This document shows, one piece after another, positions 1-5,296 of a stretch of DNA of 5,296 nt (within the stretch, counting starts at the first letter, position 1; each line of letters opens with the position of its first letter). The position numbers are program-made. This DNA comes from a virus (taxonomy: Duplodnaviria; Heunggongvirae; Uroviricota; Caudoviricetes): IMG/VR virus record IMGVR_UViG_2609459856_000012, one strand, 5' to 3'.

Positions 1-3000
1 TTTTGAACATTTCAGGCTATTTTTCTCGCGTTAGGTTCCCGCACAGGTTCCCACGTTTTATGGGAACCCGAAATAACGAGGTCGTGTAATGGCGTACTAT
101 AACATAGAGAAACGACTAAAATCCGATGGCACACCACGCTATCGCTGTAATGTGATTATCAAAGAAAAAGGTGTTATCACTTACAGGGAAAGCAAAACAT
201 TCCCTAAACATGCCCATGCCAAAACATGGGGTACACAGAAAGTGATGGAATTAGATCTATATGGCATTCCATCATCAAATGCAGTTGACGGACTTACAGT
301 CCGTGACTTACTACACAAATATTTAAATGACCCAAATGCCGGAGGTAAGGCAGGCCGTACTAAAAGATATGTGCTGGAACTGCTTATGGATAGTGACATC
401 TCCGCGATCAAACTATCCGAACTGACAGAAAATGACGTAATTGAACATTGCAGGCTAAGAAACAACGCTGGTGCAGGTCCAGCAACAGTCAGCCACGATG
501 TAAGTTATCTTGGCAGTGTTCTGGATGCGGCCAAACCTGTATACGGAATTAATTACACATCAAACCCGGCGAAAAGCGCTCGTCCATATCTACTTAAACT
601 TGGTTTGATTGGTAAATCAAACCGTCGTAATCGTAGACCAGCATCTGATGAACTGGACATGCTCATTGAAGGCCTTCAACAACGATCTACTCATAAATGC
701 TCAAAAATTCCGTTCGTTGATATCCTCAAATTTTCTGTGTGGTCCTGTATGCGAATCGGAGAAGTATGCCGGTTACGATGGGAAGATCTCGACCAGGAAC
801 AAAAATCTATACTCGTAAGAGACAGGAAAGATCCACGCAAAAAGGAAGGCAACCACATGAAAGTAGCCTTGCTTGGGGAAGCCTGGGATATCGTCCAACG
901 ACAGCCCCAAAAATCGGAATTCATTTTTCCATATAACAGCACTTCTGTTACTGCGGGATTTCAGAGGGTAAGAAGCAAATTAGGTATTAAAGATCTGCGA
1001 TACCATGATTTGCGTAGAGAAGGGGCAAGTCGCTTATTTGAGGCTGGTTTTAGTATTGAGGAAGTCGCCCAAGTTACAGGGCATCGTTCATTAAACGTGC
1101 TATGGCAGGTATATACCGAACTGTATCCGAAATCTTTACATAATCGTTTTGAAGAGCTCCAAAAGAGCAGAAATAAGACCTCTTGACACTGTTTATCCAT
1201 ACAGTTAAAAATAATACTGTATACAAACACAGTATAGAGGGACTTTTATGCGTATTGAAATCTGCATAGCCAAAGAAAAAATGACTAAAATGCCAACCGG
1301 TGCTGTGGATGCGTTAAAGGAAGAATTAACCCGACGCATCAGTAAACGTTATGACGATGTAGAGGTGATCGTAAAAGCCACCAGCAACGATGGCCTTTCT
1401 GTTACGCGCACCGCCGATAAAGATTCAGCTAAAACTTTTGTTCAGGAAACTCTGAAAGATACCTGGGAGTCTGCTGACGAGTGGTTTGTTCACTAATTGG
1501 CACGTAAAATCAGTAACGGCTGGAAATCATTCAATACTCGCACTATCGAAAGTTAACCAGCCAGCCGCAGTATCCTATCATGACAAGTTACTGCGGCTTT
1601 TTACTTTTTATATTTAACGGATCAACATCCAGATCAGCAGACACGCCACCACCGGCACAGCAAAATCCATCAGGCTTGCTACATCCCACGCGCGTAGATC
1701 AAAACCGCCCCACCACGGCATATTCATTCGCTTGCCATGCCCGAACATTTCGATCCAGCGATATTCTGCCTGGGTGTGTTCACGCGCAATGAAGAACGTA
1801 CAACCGGCTATCGCCCCGTAAGCCCAGTTCCCGGTAAAAAGACCAATCAGTAGCTGCGCAGCCACAGCACAAAGCGCATGAAGGAAAGGTGTTATATCCA
1901 TTTTCATCCTACCCAATAAAACGGGGCGCTCGGCCCCTTAATATTATTTAGACGCAAGCGCCGCCTCAATTGCAGATAATCTTTGTCTTAATTCTGCGTT
2001 TTCTTCTTCCAGTGCTGTTATTCTGTCGTCTGACTCTCTGGCTACCTGAACAAGCAAGCCAGTAACACCAGAATAATCTACTGTGTAATAACGTTCACCT
2101 TCTTCACCTTCCGATCCGCTCGCACCGTCCTGATATTTCATTGCGGAACCTACAACTTCTGGGATTGCTTCCAGAGCTTCCTGTGCAATGACACCAGCAT
2201 AGGGCATACCGTTTTCTTTAAGCGTGTATGTATAGCCGTTCATTTTACGGATGCGGTCGGTTGCATTATCGATCACCTGAATGTTGTCTTTCAGATCCCG
2301 GTCGGAATGCTGGTTAAATGCGGTGGCATGACATGCACCATTAACGCTTAACATATAGGTGTTATCGGTATTTTTCTGCGCATAGAACATATAAGCGCCA
2401 CCATCAACACCGACTTCATAAACAACAGGACGGCTAGAATTTCCCCATAATAACGTCGACACACCAGAATAAGCCGTACCCTGTGTGTTTAGTGTCATGG
2501 TCGACCCGTGATTAGCATATTTGATCTGCAATGAGTCTGTATTATCAAACTTAATAAGCGCGTTACTTCCCCGCACACCATACGACATGAGACAGTTCCC
2601 CATCTTAAGGTAACCATCACTGCCTGGAAAAATTAAAGTTCCTCCGTAAAGATCACTAAAGTCCCAAAAGATACCTTTTGTCCCGTTATGTGTGACGATC
2701 CTCGTCATTGTATCTTTAGTACCATCAATATTTTTTCTGGTATATATGTCACTATAAGCGTTTTCCGTTTCACCAGTCTTATTTGACAAGTGAATCTTAC
2801 CGCTAAATATAGTTCCAGTGGTCGGCAATGTCTTTTGATTATAGATTACATTGCAATAACTATTCCATGTTGTTTTATTGTCTACATAAGATTTTGTTGC
2901 GTAGCTTCCTTGATCGTTTTTTAATTTGCTAACGTCGGATTTTAGCGTTTTGATATCATCAGGAATTACTGTCGATGTAGCCATTTTTCTTCCTCACATC

Positions 3001-5296
3001 CAGCCACGAAGTTGATGCTCAACAGCAACCACGTATTCATCGAATAATGACGATATTTGCGAATCATTAATGATGCGCACGTTTACAAAATATCCGTCTT
3101 CCTTAACACATACCGGTTCGCCATCTTCAGTAAGTTCTCCGGTTTCTTTGTACACATTACCTATCACGTCAATAAGAATATCATCCTGCATCGACTCGTC
3201 ATCATAATAGCCAATACTCTCCATAAAGGCCGAAAAGTCGGCCCTGTCGGCAAATTTGAGTGTTAAATCTTTCATTAGATTGACTCCCCCATCTGAGCAT
3301 CAGTCAATGCCTTGTGCCATATTCTGAAATTCCTGACATGACCAAATAAATGACGCAACCCGGCTGTAGTCTGGCCTCCAATACGGATAATTGCGGTGTT
3401 CTGAATATAGGACCATGTGGCTTTCTTTTCGCTGGATATACGCCCGTTACTTACTGAGCACGTAGACTGATCTGACTTTACACGCATCCCCATAACCATT
3501 TTTTCAAGCGATGCGTTTTCGTTTACCCGTCTGTTAGCCAAACCTATATCGCAATAAGGAAATCCGTCGTAATCTGTTGAACGACCGAAGCCAAGAATAA
3601 TAGCCGCTCCGGTTTGATGACCGCCGGTATCAAAAACACGTGGCGCTGCATTTGGCGTTTTATACCAGTTCTTATGTACCTCACAAAGAACCGTAAAAGG
3701 AAGATTATAAAGATTATTCTTAATTGGAACTGTAACTATATCGCTTGCGCGGGTCGCCGCCGTCGCTCCTGATATAATAAAAGATGATACACAAGGCCCA
3801 TCTTCTACTTGTGGGGTGGCCAGATAAATATAGTCACCAGATACGGTTGCCCCGCTCTGCTTAGGAGAATACTGTATCTGAGAGCCTATTTTTAACTCCC
3901 CATCAATTGCCTGAATTGTTGCCTCTGCAAAAATCCATCCGGTAGCTTCGTCCTTTCTGACTCTCGCTGTAATCCTTGAGGCAGCACCGCCTGTCATATT
4001 AATTTCAAGCGTTTGTGTATCAATATACGCATCACCAAGAAAAGTTGTTGCGCTACCGTCATATTTATCAAACCGGATACGCAACCTTACCTGCAGTTCT
4101 GTTTTAAAACGACATGAGGTTGTCACGTGTTTATTATCGCCTGAGACATCAACTGACTTTGTTGCAGCAATTGATGCCATATTAATGGCTGAGGTTTGCC
4201 CAATCAGAGAATCGTTGCAGACAAACTTTCCATAGGTAAAACCAAAATTATCCGTCCCTGTTTCGGGCACATCCATATTTGACGATCGCCCCCAACTGGC
4301 AGGGCTTTCCGAATTGAGCATGTAGTTTGTTCTTTGCCCCTCAATAAGCAGGCCATCACGTTCAAATCGTGGCTCGTCAATGGCAGCCTCTGTCAGCACA
4401 CCAGATTTGTTAATATAGGTTGCTTTCGATGCACGTTTAAACTTAACAATCTTGTCGCCAGGCATCGTTATTTCATCATCACCAATAACAATTTTTTTAT
4501 ATGACGGCGAAAAGCCCGTAATCATATCCAGTGAATCGTTAAACGGTATCCACACATCGGGAAGCGGCTGCAAAACTTGTTTATACGGCTCCGCAGCCTG
4601 GCTTGCATACTCTCTGGCTGCGTCTTCACTTGCTTTTGCAGCCGTCTGGCTTGCAGCGGATGCTTTCGCCGAGTTAGCCGCCGCAGTCTCGCTCGCCTTT
4701 GCGTTGGTTTCACTGGTTTTTGCTGCTTTTTGACTGTTGGCTGATGCAGTGGCAGAAGCAGCCGCCGCACTTGCAGAACCAGCTGCAGCACTCTCGCTTT
4801 GGGCTGCTGCATCCTGACTGTTTTTCGCCGCAGTTTCGCTGGCTTTGGCATTCGTTTCGCTGGTCTTCGCTGCCGTCTGGCTGGACTTTGCGTTAGTTTC
4901 ACTCGTCTTCGCAGCTTTCTGGCTGTTAGCCGCAGCAGTTGCTGATCCAGCTGCTGAAGTCGCAGAACCGGCTGCCGCGCTCTCGCTTTGGGCTGCTGCA
5001 ACCTGGCTGTTTTTTGCCGCAGTTTCACTGGCTTTGGCATTCGTTTCGCTGGTCTTCGCTGCCGTCTGGCTGGACTTTGCGTTGGTTTCGCTCGTCTTTG
5101 CGGCTGTCTCGCTATTTTTCGCGTTGGTTTCTGATTTTTTGGCTGCTGTCGCGGAGTTTGCCGATGCAGTCTTTGAGGTCGCTGCCGCCTGTGCACTATT
5201 AGCTGCATTCGTTTCTGAGGTTTTCGCCGCGTTCTTCGATGATGCCGCTGCAGTTTCGGATTTCTTTGCCGCCGCTGCGCTCTGAGAGGCGGCTTC

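What the first reader, a model, noticed from the sequence alone, without database searches (positions are those of the whole stretch)
1944..5296. Non-canonical tail-fibre module: Stf, acidic protein, then a tail protein with its own chaperone domain; no Tfa-like gene in the window
Lambdoid fibre modules are usually stf followed by tfa (an assembly chaperone or adhesin). Here stf is followed by a translationally coupled 93-aa acidic ORF and then by a 346-aa receptor-binding-type protein that carries its own C-terminal self-cleaving chaperone domain. The mature 346-aa protein (about 226 aa after cleavage) has no obvious N-terminal particle-anchoring domain, so it must dock on something else. Candidates are the lectin-like tip of Stf, possibly bridged by the acidic protein, which would give a branched or dual-specificity fibre. 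Two different receptor-binding folds in tandem suggest two host-recognition activities.
Basis: partly seen in the sequence, partly recalled or inferred. Interest (0 to 1): 0.6.

Follow-up and report, generated by a model that had tools for sequence, protein, structure and literature searches.

The report
Two-part side tail fibre cassette
This prophage carries a common but little-studied tail-fibre cassette: a long fibre ending in a sugar-binding domain, a small acidic partner protein of unknown role, and a short plug-in second fibre that folds with its own cut-off chaperone, so it is an ordinary member of a widespread module whose small partner protein is still unexplained.

Summary
On the minus strand lie a partial stf (3275-5296), a translationally coupled acidic 93-aa ORF (2994-3275, pI 4.05), and a 346-aa protein (1944-2984) with a Peptidase_S74 chaperone domain from Ser227. 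No Tfa-like sequence is in the window.

The arrangement is not rare. The same three-gene cassette occurs in lambdoid, T1-like, T5-like and 9g-like siphoviruses and in a P2-like prophage. About 5% of complete E. coli genomes carry at least 80% of the region at 1500-5296.

The last 431 aa of Stf ("StfC") are related to the capsule-binding head-spike fibre of RcGTA, followed by a weak LamG-like end. p93 followed a complete StfC in every locus examined, including 10/10 sampled by StfC alone. The 346-aa protein is optional.

That protein does have an anchor: a short conserved N-terminal plug (MATSTVIPDDIKTLK...). Its first 31 residues are identical between two alleles that differ downstream.

Best reading: a two-tier, dual-specificity fibre, as already predicted for phage IrisVonRoten Gp22/Gp24. 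p93 is more likely a StfC assembly or joint factor than a pure bridge. Physical attachment was not shown. Verdict: new member of a known kind, moderate interest.

The parts
4571..5296 (-). Stf shaft (partial; the gene continues beyond the window). It is Ala/Ser/Thr/Lys/Glu-rich with SETNAK-type repeats, including a 189-nt tandem repeat at 4679-5113.
   Evidence: Translation. Tandem Repeats Finder. PHROG tail-fibre families match aa 1-240. Full-length relatives carry PF08400 (prophage tail fibre N-terminal) upstream.
3275..4570 (-). StfC, the C-terminal 431-aa module of Stf, starting at the conserved junction QPLPDVWIPFNDSL. It is inferred to be a polysaccharide-binding, lectin-like tip: a head-spike-fibre-like domain followed by a weak LamG-like end.
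   Evidence: Profile against PDB sequences hits RcGTA Rcc01080 (E=6.5e-17, aa 43-288). NCBIfam NF048003 scores 51 bits against a cut-off of 36. Laminin_G_3 matches weakly in 6 of 7 homologues. The junction motif QP[LF]PDVW is shared by 11 of the 13 fibre lineages examined, behind different shafts. The Nonagvirus ESCO3 megablast block starts at 4570. The AF2 model failed (pLDDT 40.6).
2994..3275 (-). p93, a small acidic protein (pI 4.05) whose ATG overlaps the stf stop by 1 nt. It is the constant partner of StfC. I infer it is a StfC assembly or joint factor occupying the position of tfa.
2892..2984 (-). N-terminal plug of the 346-aa protein (aa 1-31, MATSTVIPDDIKTLKSDVSKLKNDQGSYATK). It is an extended peptide followed by about two coiled-coil heptads. 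I infer it is the docking element for the StfC/p93 end of Stf.
   Evidence: It is identical between two alleles that differ downstream. The motif M-x-T-x-T-x-IP-x-DI-x-x-LK is kept in T1-like, T5-like and P2-like versions. The first ~26 aa of IrisVonRoten Gp24 are exchanged separately from aa 27-80. Wherever coordinates of both were listed, it lies 10-20 nt after p93.
2649..2891 (-). Hypervariable segment of the mature 346-aa protein (aa 32-112), a candidate specificity-determining region.
   Evidence: Pairwise alignment with the 2G7b allele: overall identity is 80%, and almost all differences fall in aa 32-112.
2307..2648 (-). Conserved distal fibre-tip region of the mature protein (aa 113-226), ending at His226.
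   Evidence: PHROG tail-fibre tips: phrog_6578 (aa 145-342 against positions 991-1200 of 1210) and phrog_5668 (aa 69-337 against positions 1273-1566 of 1567). Weak matches to T4 gp34 and S16 gp37 chains.
1944..2306 (-). C-terminal intramolecular chaperone (Peptidase_S74), aa 227-346 plus the stop codon. It contains the Ser227/Lys232 dyad and a terminal coiled-coil helix. The predicted autocleavage is between His226 and Ser227.
   Evidence: PF13884 E=6.3e-14. Weak match to the S16 gp37 C-terminus, 6F45. Dyad spacing and cleavage site by analogy with T5 pb1 (PMC4690869).
1923..1937 (-). GC-rich hairpin followed by GTTTTATT, a terminator-like site just after the 346-aa gene.
   Evidence: 5 GC pairs, loop of 5. 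Sequence. This is a consensus match only.
1614..1907 (-). p100, a small hydrophobic protein that ends the block in lambdoid relatives. It is linked context and probably not a fibre component.
   Evidence: phrog_1443, function unknown. 91-95% identical homologues lie in the same place in 2G7b, phage 21 and PhiR40_1. It follows p93 directly in 46/48 phage-21-type loci. The phage 21 record annotates it as a putative membrane protein.

Best explanation
The region encodes a modular, two-tier side tail fibre.

**Proximal fibre.** Stf is anchored to the tail by an N-terminus that lies outside the window. Its repeat-rich shaft ends in StfC, a 431-aa module related to the capsule-binding head-spike fibre of RcGTA, with a LamG-like end. 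This would be a first, polysaccharide-binding receptor module.

**p93.** It is made in step with Stf through a 1-nt stop/start overlap, in exactly the place where lambda has tfa. It is the constant partner of StfC. I infer that it helps fold or assemble the StfC end, or stays bound there as part of the joint.

**Distal fibre.** The 346-aa protein is an optional plug-in fibre. It trimerises with the help of its own C-terminal Peptidase_S74 chaperone, which cuts itself off at His226/Ser227. The 226-aa mature protein then attaches through its conserved ~30-aa N-terminal plug to the StfC/p93 end of Stf and provides a second specificity.

**Shown:** the gene structure, the domain homologies, the co-occurrence patterns and the mosaic boundaries. 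**Inferred:** physical attachment, the role of p93, and the receptors.
For: 1. **Domains.** S74 at aa 227-278 with an S-x4-K dyad as in T5 pb1. StfC matches Rcc01080 (E=6.5e-17) and NF048003. Rcc01080 is a single-subunit capsule-binding fibre (PMC7296036 and PMC10218006).
2. **p93 travels with StfC.** It does so in 7/7 phage lineages. It does so in 10/10 gammaproteobacterial loci found by StfC alone, down to 27-30% StfC identity in Aeromonas. It also does so in a P2-like prophage.
3. **The second fibre is optional.** 82/82 window-type p93 loci with downstream sequence have it, while 46/48 phage-21-type loci with downstream sequence go straight to p100. p93 is still under purifying selection there (dN/dS 0.32).
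4. **The plug.** Its first 31 aa are identical between two alleles that differ downstream. Homology with 2G7b ends at codon 35. The motif is kept across phage families.
5. **The cassette moves as a unit.** Window 2016-4570 matches the virulent Nonagvirus ESCO3 at 92% nucleotide identity, starting exactly at the StfC junction.
6. **Only StfC and p93 are shared.** They are the only shared fibre-locus components I found among lambdoid, T1-like, T5-like and 9g-like phages and a P2-like prophage that carry plug-bearing proteins.
7. **Two variable modules around a constant one.** StfC alleles and second-fibre alleles reassort around a constant p93.
8. **p93 and Tfa coexist.** In the P2-like locus the plug-bearing protein has a Tfa-dependent tip and is followed by a Caudo_TAP gene, while p93 is still present. 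p93 is therefore not the chaperone of the distal fibre.
9. **Same coupling as lambda.** Lambda stf and tfa overlap by 1 nt just as stf and p93 do here.
10. **Published precedent.** AlphaFold-Multimer models of the homologous IrisVonRoten pair place Gp24 on proximal fibre Gp22, which has a galectin-like C-terminal domain (PMC11990801).
Against: - No direct evidence of any physical contact.
- Whether p93 is in the virion is unknown.
- The perfect split between p93 subtype and presence of the second fibre is also what a bridging role would give.
- The solved Rcc01080 structure covers only residues 2-10, so the lectin fold of StfC is inferred from sequence homology and from a published AlphaFold description.
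- Co-occurrence counts come from related prophages and are not independent events.
Confidence: 0.6

Rival explanations
1. p93 is primarily a structural adaptor. It stays on the StfC end of the fibre and forms the socket that holds the N-terminal plug of the second fibre.
For: - p93 is the most conserved element, lying between two variable receptor-binding modules.
- p93 subtype and presence of the second fibre correlate perfectly in E. coli prophages: 82/82 against 0/48.
- The plug's N-terminus changes together with the p93/StfC lineage: MATSTVIP, MVTKTVIP, MANRID, MVLRKD.
- p93 is strongly acidic, while the LamG-like end of StfC is basic (pI 9.5). That would suit a stable complex.
Against: - p93 is retained and under purifying selection where no second fibre exists: phage 21, PhiR40_1, 46 phage-21-type prophages, an rV5-like phage, Buttiauxella and Aeromonas.
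- No position in p93 obviously separates lineages with and without the second fibre.
Confidence: 0.25
2. The 346-aa protein is an independent fibre or spike that attaches elsewhere on the tail tip. Its linkage to stf and p93 is only genomic.
For: - Attachment to Stf was never shown here.
- Some phages carry several independent receptor-binding proteins (PMC11990801).
Against: - It has only a ~30-aa plug and no known tail-binding domain.
- The same plug motif is found in sipho- and myoviruses with unrelated tail tips, always directly after StfC and p93.
- The StfC-p93-second-fibre block is transferred as one unit between a lambdoid prophage and a Nonagvirus.
Confidence: 0.08
3. The S74-domain protein is not structural. 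It acts in trans as a folding or trimerisation chaperone for Stf, as database names such as 'lateral tail fiber chaperone' and 'endosialidase chaperone' suggest.
For: - Short alleles of 225-234 aa would leave a mature part of only about 115 aa.
- Several records name it a chaperone.
Against: - The names derive from the Pfam title of the domain. In T5 pb1 the S74 chaperone is an intramolecular domain that is cleaved off the fibre it belongs to (PMC4690869).
- The mature part matches the tips of long tail fibres in PHROGs and contains an allele-specific hypervariable segment, as expected of a receptor binder.
- Many StfC fibres exist without it.
- In the P2-like locus the same slot holds an ordinary Tfa-dependent fibre tip.
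Confidence: 0.05

Closest known systems
Lateral tail fibre locus of T5-like phage IrisVonRoten (Bas32): Gp22 proximal fibre, gp23, Gp24 T-shaped fibre (Humolli et al. 2025, PMC11990801)
   Same: Same three-gene order and coupling. StfC is 64% identical, p93 is 39% identical, and the plug motif is shared: MVTKTVIPTDITKLK against MATSTVIPDDIKTLK. Gp24 also ends in an S74 chaperone. The authors model Gp24 on Gp22 and note a galectin-like C-terminal domain on Gp22 as a possible extra receptor-binding domain.
   Different: That phage is a virulent T5-like phage whose fibre is anchored by an LtfA-type N-terminus. Its distal protein is 574 aa with two receptor-binding domains, against 346 aa here. 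In the passages I read, the paper never discusses the small gp23 protein as such; its one use of the label 'Gp23' refers to the proximal fibre.
Branched lateral tail fibres of DT57C/DT571-2 (LtfA-LtfB) and phiEco32 (gp14-gp15) (Golomidova et al. 2016, PMC4728585; Ayala et al. 2023, PMC10713586)
   Same: A second receptor-binding protein with no tail anchor is carried by the first fibre through a short conserved N-terminal segment. There are two specificities, and the second protein has an S74 chaperone.
   Different: The docking segment is unrelated: phiEco32 gp15 starts MARELMPKSGIMMPHVVV. The published descriptions of the DT57C locus name only LtfA, LtfB and LtfC, with no small partner protein; I did not inspect that sequence. 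LtfA has its own S74 chaperone, whereas no S74 match was found in the window's Stf, which ends in StfC.
Lambda Stf-Tfa (side tail fibre and Caudo_TAP assembly protein)
   Same: Same genomic place, after J and lom and before the integration region. Full-length relatives share the PF08400 N-terminal anchor. The gene after stf overlaps its stop by 1 nt in both.
   Different: p93 is not a detectable Tfa relative. The Stf tip here is the StfC module, not a Tfa-dependent tip. A third gene adds a second fibre.
C-terminal intramolecular chaperone domains (Peptidase_S74) of K1F endosialidase and T5 pb1
   Same: A Pfam match above the gathering score, the Ser/Lys dyad with the same spacing, and a C-terminal helical segment.
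   Different: The domain is attached to a very short (226-aa) mature fibre that lacks its own tail anchor.
RcGTA head spike fibre Rcc01080
   Same: StfC aa 43-288 are homologous (E=6.5e-17). Rcc01080 is a flexible, single-subunit capsule-binding protein held by a short N-terminal peptide.
   Different: Here the domain is fused to the end of a tail fibre, carries an extra LamG-like C-terminal part, and is accompanied by p93. The alphaproteobacterial homologues lack p93.

Membership tests
Peptidase_S74 intramolecular chaperone (C-terminus of the 346-aa protein) | Match to PF13884 above Pfam's gathering score | tested here: met
   52.5 bits against a cut-off of 22, E=6.3e-14, aa 227-278.
Peptidase_S74 intramolecular chaperone (C-terminus of the 346-aa protein) | Catalytic Ser and Lys five residues apart at the start of the domain | tested here: met
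   S227-D-R-D-L-K232, the same spacing as T5 pb1 Ser1264/Lys1269 (PMC4690869).
Peptidase_S74 intramolecular chaperone (C-terminus of the 346-aa protein) | Autoproteolytic release after trimer folding | not testable with these tools
   Needs expression of the wild type and an S227A mutant.
Tfa / Caudo_TAP tail fibre assembly proteins (candidate family for p93) | Sequence or profile similarity to PF02413 or to lambda Tfa | tested here: not met
   No Pfam hit for p93 or for 18 family members. hhalign of the p93 profile against lambda Tfa gives probability 0.04%.
Tfa / Caudo_TAP tail fibre assembly proteins (candidate family for p93) | Gene immediately downstream of the fibre gene, translationally coupled | tested here: met
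   A 1-nt stop/start overlap here, as at lambda stf/tfa position 21973.
Tfa / Caudo_TAP tail fibre assembly proteins (candidate family for p93) | Required for folding or assembly of the fibre tip | not testable with these tools
   Needs a p93 deletion or co-expression experiment.
Lambdoid side tail fibre (Stf) | N-terminal tail-attachment domain PF08400 | tested here: inconclusive
   The N-terminus lies outside the window. Most full-length proteins whose StfC region is 76-100% identical to the window's carry PF08400.
Lambdoid side tail fibre (Stf) | Tfa-dependent C-terminal tip | tested here: not met
   The C-terminus is the StfC module, and there is no Tfa in the window.
Phage head spike fibre domain (NCBIfam NF048003, RcGTA Rcc01080) | Match above the curated cut-off and to Rcc01080 itself | tested here: met
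   51 bits against a cut-off of 36. Profile against Rcc01080 gives E=6.5e-17.
Phage head spike fibre domain (NCBIfam NF048003, RcGTA Rcc01080) | Binds surface polysaccharide | not testable with these tools
   Shown for Rcc01080 only (PMC10218006).
StfC-p93-plug two-tier fibre (IrisVonRoten Gp22-gp23-Gp24 type) | Fibre ending in StfC, then a p93 homologue, then a protein with the M-x-T-x-T-x-IP-x-DI-x-x-LK N-terminus | tested here: met
   64% and 39% identity to the IrisVonRoten proteins, with the shared motif.
StfC-p93-plug two-tier fibre (IrisVonRoten Gp22-gp23-Gp24 type) | Distal protein physically attached to the proximal fibre | not testable with these tools
   Only a published AlphaFold-Multimer model exists for the homologue.
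DT57C LtfA-LtfB / phiEco32 gp14-gp15 branched fibre | Second fibre with a phiEco32 gp15-like N-terminal 45 aa | tested here: not met
   The phiEco32 gp15 N-terminus is unrelated on inspection. This is therefore the same kind of arrangement but not the same family.

The most novel reading that the evidence does not exclude
StfC and p93 together form a standard 'socket', and the ~30-aa MATSTVIP-type N-terminus is the matching 'plug'. This would be a portable joint that lets sipho- and myoviruses of enterobacteria swap distal receptor-binding fibres, each bringing its own chaperone (S74 in cis or Tfa in trans), onto a fibre that already binds polysaccharide. p93 would then be a new family of fibre-joint protein, unrelated to Tfa.
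Probability: 0.3. Interest if true: 0.6.

Novelty: new member of a known kind. Interest (0 to 1): 0.4.

Why it matters
- **Host range.** Two-tier fibres with two variable receptor-binding modules help explain host-range breadth and its rapid change in E. coli prophages. About 5% of complete E. coli genomes carry this cassette.
- **Engineering.** The mosaic boundaries are sharp: the QPLPDVW junction at window 4570, and codon 31-35 of the 346-aa gene. These are ready-made splice points for building fibres with new specificities.
- **The open question.** The real unknown is p93. It is a small family restricted to phage fibre loci that always accompanies StfC and has no known fold relative or function. 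If it proves to be a joint or assembly factor, it would add a third kind of fibre helper beside Tfa-type and S74-type chaperones.
- **What is not new.** The window itself adds no new principle beyond what was proposed for IrisVonRoten and DT57C.

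Tried and rejected
- **AF2 of StfC.** Run with a shallow alignment (at least 76% identity). It gave pLDDT 40.6 and was not used for fold search.
- **AF2 of a StfC-linker-p93-linker-plug fusion.** Run with paired rows from nine loci.
- **Foldseek against BFVD.** Only uncharacterised phage proteins. The afdb50 library was unavailable.
- **Sequence searches with p93.** p93 against PDB sequences gave only chance GAPDH hits. 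p93 against Pfam and NCBIfam gave nothing.
- **First protein search with p93.** It returned only near-identical E. coli proteins. The exhaustive representative search was needed to get diversity.
- **Looking for virion proteomics through rV5.** rV5 itself lacks the p93-type gene after gp41, so this was a dead end.
- **Rosetta-stone fusions.** No p93 homologue was fused to a fibre protein. The two long hits consist of several short stretches and were not examined further.
- **Considered and rejected: p93 as a diverged Tfa.** See, and the coexistence of p93 with a true Tfa in one locus.
- **Considered and rejected: a decayed prophage remnant.** The ORFs are intact, p93 is under purifying selection, and the same cassette is present in phages isolated and propagated on E. 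coli (2G7b, ESCO3, KarlJaspers, IrisVonRoten).

Full report
**Observation.** The window is the right end of a lambdoid E. coli prophage. It contains an integrase (89-1186, +) and a DinI-like gene (1248-1496, +). On the minus strand it contains a small hydrophobic ORF p100 (1614-1907), a 346-aa ORF (1944-2984), a 93-aa ORF (2994-3275), and a fibre gene that runs off the window (3275-5296, 673 aa visible). The stf stop TAA shares one base with the p93 ATG, and a GGGGAG ribosome-binding site lies upstream. The 346-aa gene starts 9 nt after the p93 stop, behind GAGGAAG. p93 has pI 4.05. The 346-aa protein matches Peptidase_S74 at aa 227-278 (E=6.3e-14, above the gathering score). It carries Ser227 and Lys232 with the spacing of T5 pb1 Ser1264/Lys1269, where the Thr1263-Ser1264 bond is cut (PMC4690869). 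No Tfa-like sequence is present.

**How common it is.** The block is not an oddity. Megablast finds it in lambdoid phages 2G7b, Tritos, HannyBb and the PhiR series, and in the virulent Nonagvirus ESCO3. All three proteins have their own PHROG families: phrog_1419, phrog_1361 (unknown function) and phrog_4563. tblastn with p93 finds 183 phage records. They include lambdoid phages (among them phage 21), Drexlerviridae, Dhillonvirus, Queuovirinae, T5-like and rV5-like phages, and p93 is always next to a tail-fibre gene. Of 5,426 complete E. coli genomes, 274 carry at least 80% of window 1500-5296 at high identity.

**The Stf end (StfC).** The last 431 aa start at a sharply conserved junction, QPLPDVWIPFNDSL. 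Upstream of it the shafts differ between phage groups. The ESCO3 nucleotide match begins exactly there, at window 4570. A profile of seven StfC sequences hits the sequence of the RcGTA head spike fibre Rcc01080 at E=6.5e-17 over aa 43-288. NCBIfam NF048003 matches above its cut-off. Rcc01080 is a flexible single-subunit protein that binds capsular polysaccharide (PMC7296036 and PMC10218006). The last ~140 aa give weak Laminin_G_3 matches in 6 of 7 homologues. StfC has conserved framework segments and variable stretches between them. My AF2 model of StfC was poor (pLDDT 40.6), so the fold rests on homology. Most full-length relatives carry the PF08400 lambdoid anchor at the N-terminus, and one carries a P2-type N-terminus.

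**p93.**
- *A small, unannotated family.* It has only 52 representatives at 50% identity among 1.84 billion proteins. It has no Pfam or NCBIfam match.
- *Not a detectable Tfa relative.* hhalign against lambda Tfa gives probability 0.04%.
- *Always with StfC.* Its genomic behaviour is the informative part. It follows StfC in 7/7 phage lineages compared. When I sampled by StfC alone in a one-genome-per-species collection, all 10 gammaproteobacterial loci with a complete StfC had p93 directly downstream. These include Aeromonas, at 27-30% StfC identity. The alphaproteobacterial GTA-like homologues did not have it.
- *Maintained without the second fibre.* dN/dS is 0.21 in the lineage with the second fibre and 0.32 in the lineage without it.
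- *Same coupling as tfa.* Lambda stf and tfa overlap by one base just as stf and p93 do.

**The 346-aa protein.**
- *It matches fibre tips.* Its mature part matches the distal ends of long tail fibres (phrog_6578 and phrog_5668). It shows weak similarity to T4 gp34 and S16 gp37 chains.
- *It is optional.* Across the 142 loci I collected, 82/82 window-type p93 genes (at least 88% identity) with downstream sequence are followed 9 nt later by a protein beginning MATSTVIP-x-DI-x-TLK. In contrast, 46/48 phage-21-type p93 genes (54% identical) with downstream sequence are followed directly by p100. Phage 21 and PhiR40_1 show the same.
- *It has a conserved N-terminal plug.* After the first 15-31 residues the protein falls into at least three alleles: two of 346 aa and one of 234 aa. 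All carry an S74-type end. The two 346-aa alleles differ almost only in aa 32-112. Nucleotide homology with 2G7b stops at codon 35.
- *The plug is kept across phage families.* The motif recurs in Drexlerviridae (MATVTNIPADITALK), T5-like phages (MVTKTVIPTDITKLK) and a P2-like prophage (MATVTTIPADITNLK). In IrisVonRoten Gp24 the first ~26 aa are exchanged separately from aa 27-80.
- *It sits next to p93.* Wherever both coordinates were listed, the plug lies 10-20 nt after p93.

The protein therefore does have an anchoring element: a short conserved plug rather than a domain.

**Where it docks.** The plug-bearing protein occurs in lambdoid, T1-like, T5-like and 9g-like phages and in a P2-like prophage, which have unrelated tail tips. 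The only components I found shared across their fibre loci are StfC and p93. The StfC-p93-second-fibre block also moves as one unit between a lambdoid prophage and a Nonagvirus. This makes docking on the StfC/p93 end of Stf the economical reading. It agrees with the published AlphaFold-Multimer model of the homologous IrisVonRoten pair. There Gp24 sits on proximal fibre Gp22, whose galectin-like C-terminal domain the authors suggest as an extra receptor-binding domain (PMC11990801). The passages I read do not discuss the p93 homologue gp23 as a separate protein.

**What p93 does.** Two facts argue that p93 belongs to StfC rather than to the second fibre. First, it persists under purifying selection without the second fibre. 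Second, in the P2-like locus L145 the plug-bearing protein has an ordinary Tfa-dependent tip and is followed by a Caudo_TAP gene while p93 is still present. Each distal fibre therefore brings its own chaperone, S74 in cis or Tfa in trans, and p93 is a third element tied to StfC. Within the window-type lineage, p93 stays at least 90% identical while at least nine StfC alleles and three main second-fibre alleles reassort around it. This fits a protein that contacts conserved framework, either as an assembly factor or as part of the joint. I rate 'StfC assembly or joint factor' as most likely. I keep 'structural bridge for the plug' as a serious rival at 0.25, because p93 subtype and second-fibre presence correlate perfectly and the plug type changes with the p93/StfC lineage.

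**Comparison with known systems.**
- *IrisVonRoten Gp22-gp23-Gp24.* This is the closest relative: same order, 64% and 39% identity, and a shared plug motif.
- *DT57C LtfA-LtfB and phiEco32 gp14-gp15.* These branched fibres work alike, but they use an unrelated docking segment. No small partner protein is described for them, and LtfA has its own S74 domain (PMC4728585 and PMC10713586).
- *Lambda Stf-Tfa.* It shares position, anchor and coupling, but neither the tip nor the helper.

**Verdict.**
- The branched, dual-specificity idea is well supported by comparative evidence and by precedent.
- The claim of 'no N-terminal anchor' is corrected to a short plug.
- The bridge role of p93 is possible but not favoured.
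- 'Non-canonical' is overstated.

This is a new member of a known kind. The one open item is the function of the p93 family. Interest is 0.4.

Noticed in passing
window 1614-1907 (- strand): p100 is a ~97-aa hydrophobic protein (phrog_1443, no Pfam match). It is the last gene before dinI and int, and it sits behind a terminator-like hairpin at 1923-1937. It is 91-95% identical in 2G7b, phage 21 and PhiR40_1, and it follows p93 directly in 46/48 phage-21-type prophages. It could be a moron or an exclusion-type membrane protein.
   Followed up: partly
L145:44-3999 (P2-like prophage, GCA_024165985.1): A P2-type H fibre ends in StfC. It is followed by p93, then by a 303-aa protein with the MATVTTIPADITNLK plug and a lambda/P2-type tip without S74, then by a Caudo_TAP Tfa gene. 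p93 and Tfa therefore coexist in one locus. The gene caller had missed the 303-aa ORF.
   Followed up: yes
L149, L157, L155 (Silvania, Leclercia, Atlantibacter prophages), just after p93: Proteins lie in the second-fibre slot but have different N-termini (MANRIDSIELT, MANRIDTAELS, MVLRKDTLSE). S74-type Ser/Lys motifs are visible in L149 and L157, and L155 has a coiled-coil C-terminal end. The plug type seems to change with the p93/StfC lineage.
   Followed up: partly
L152, L153, L159 (Aeromonas rivipollensis, three prophage loci): StfC at 27-30% identity (49% over the best segment in one locus) is still followed by a p93 homologue (E about 1e-9 to 1e-11), apparently without a second fibre. This is the most distant StfC-p93 pairing seen.
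   Followed up: partly
window 4679-5113: There is a 189-nt (63-aa) tandem repeat, 2.3 copies, in the Stf shaft. The reading frame upstream of p93, and hence the shaft, varies widely in length among relatives, roughly 600-830 aa. The long ORFs in other frames here (4522-5208 on the minus strand, 4845-5285 on the plus strand) are by-products of the repeat composition.
   Followed up: partly
window 1-1800: The integrase, the dinI-like gene and part of p100 are 98.6% identical to the end of Stx2k-converting phage phiSTEC1575-Stx2k, whose match to the window stops at 1800. The integration module is therefore shared with Stx phages while the fibre cassette is exchanged separately.
   Followed up: no
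window 2985-2996 and 80+ related loci: The p93 stop and the start of the next gene are separated by exactly 9 nt, in the same frame, in every window-type locus with downstream sequence. The spacing is invariant even where the downstream allele differs.
   Followed up: no
window 3275-3700 against 2994-3275: The LamG-like last 142 aa of StfC are basic (pI 9.5, net +6), while p93 is strongly acidic (net -14). This charge complementarity would suit a complex, but it is only suggestive.
   Followed up: no
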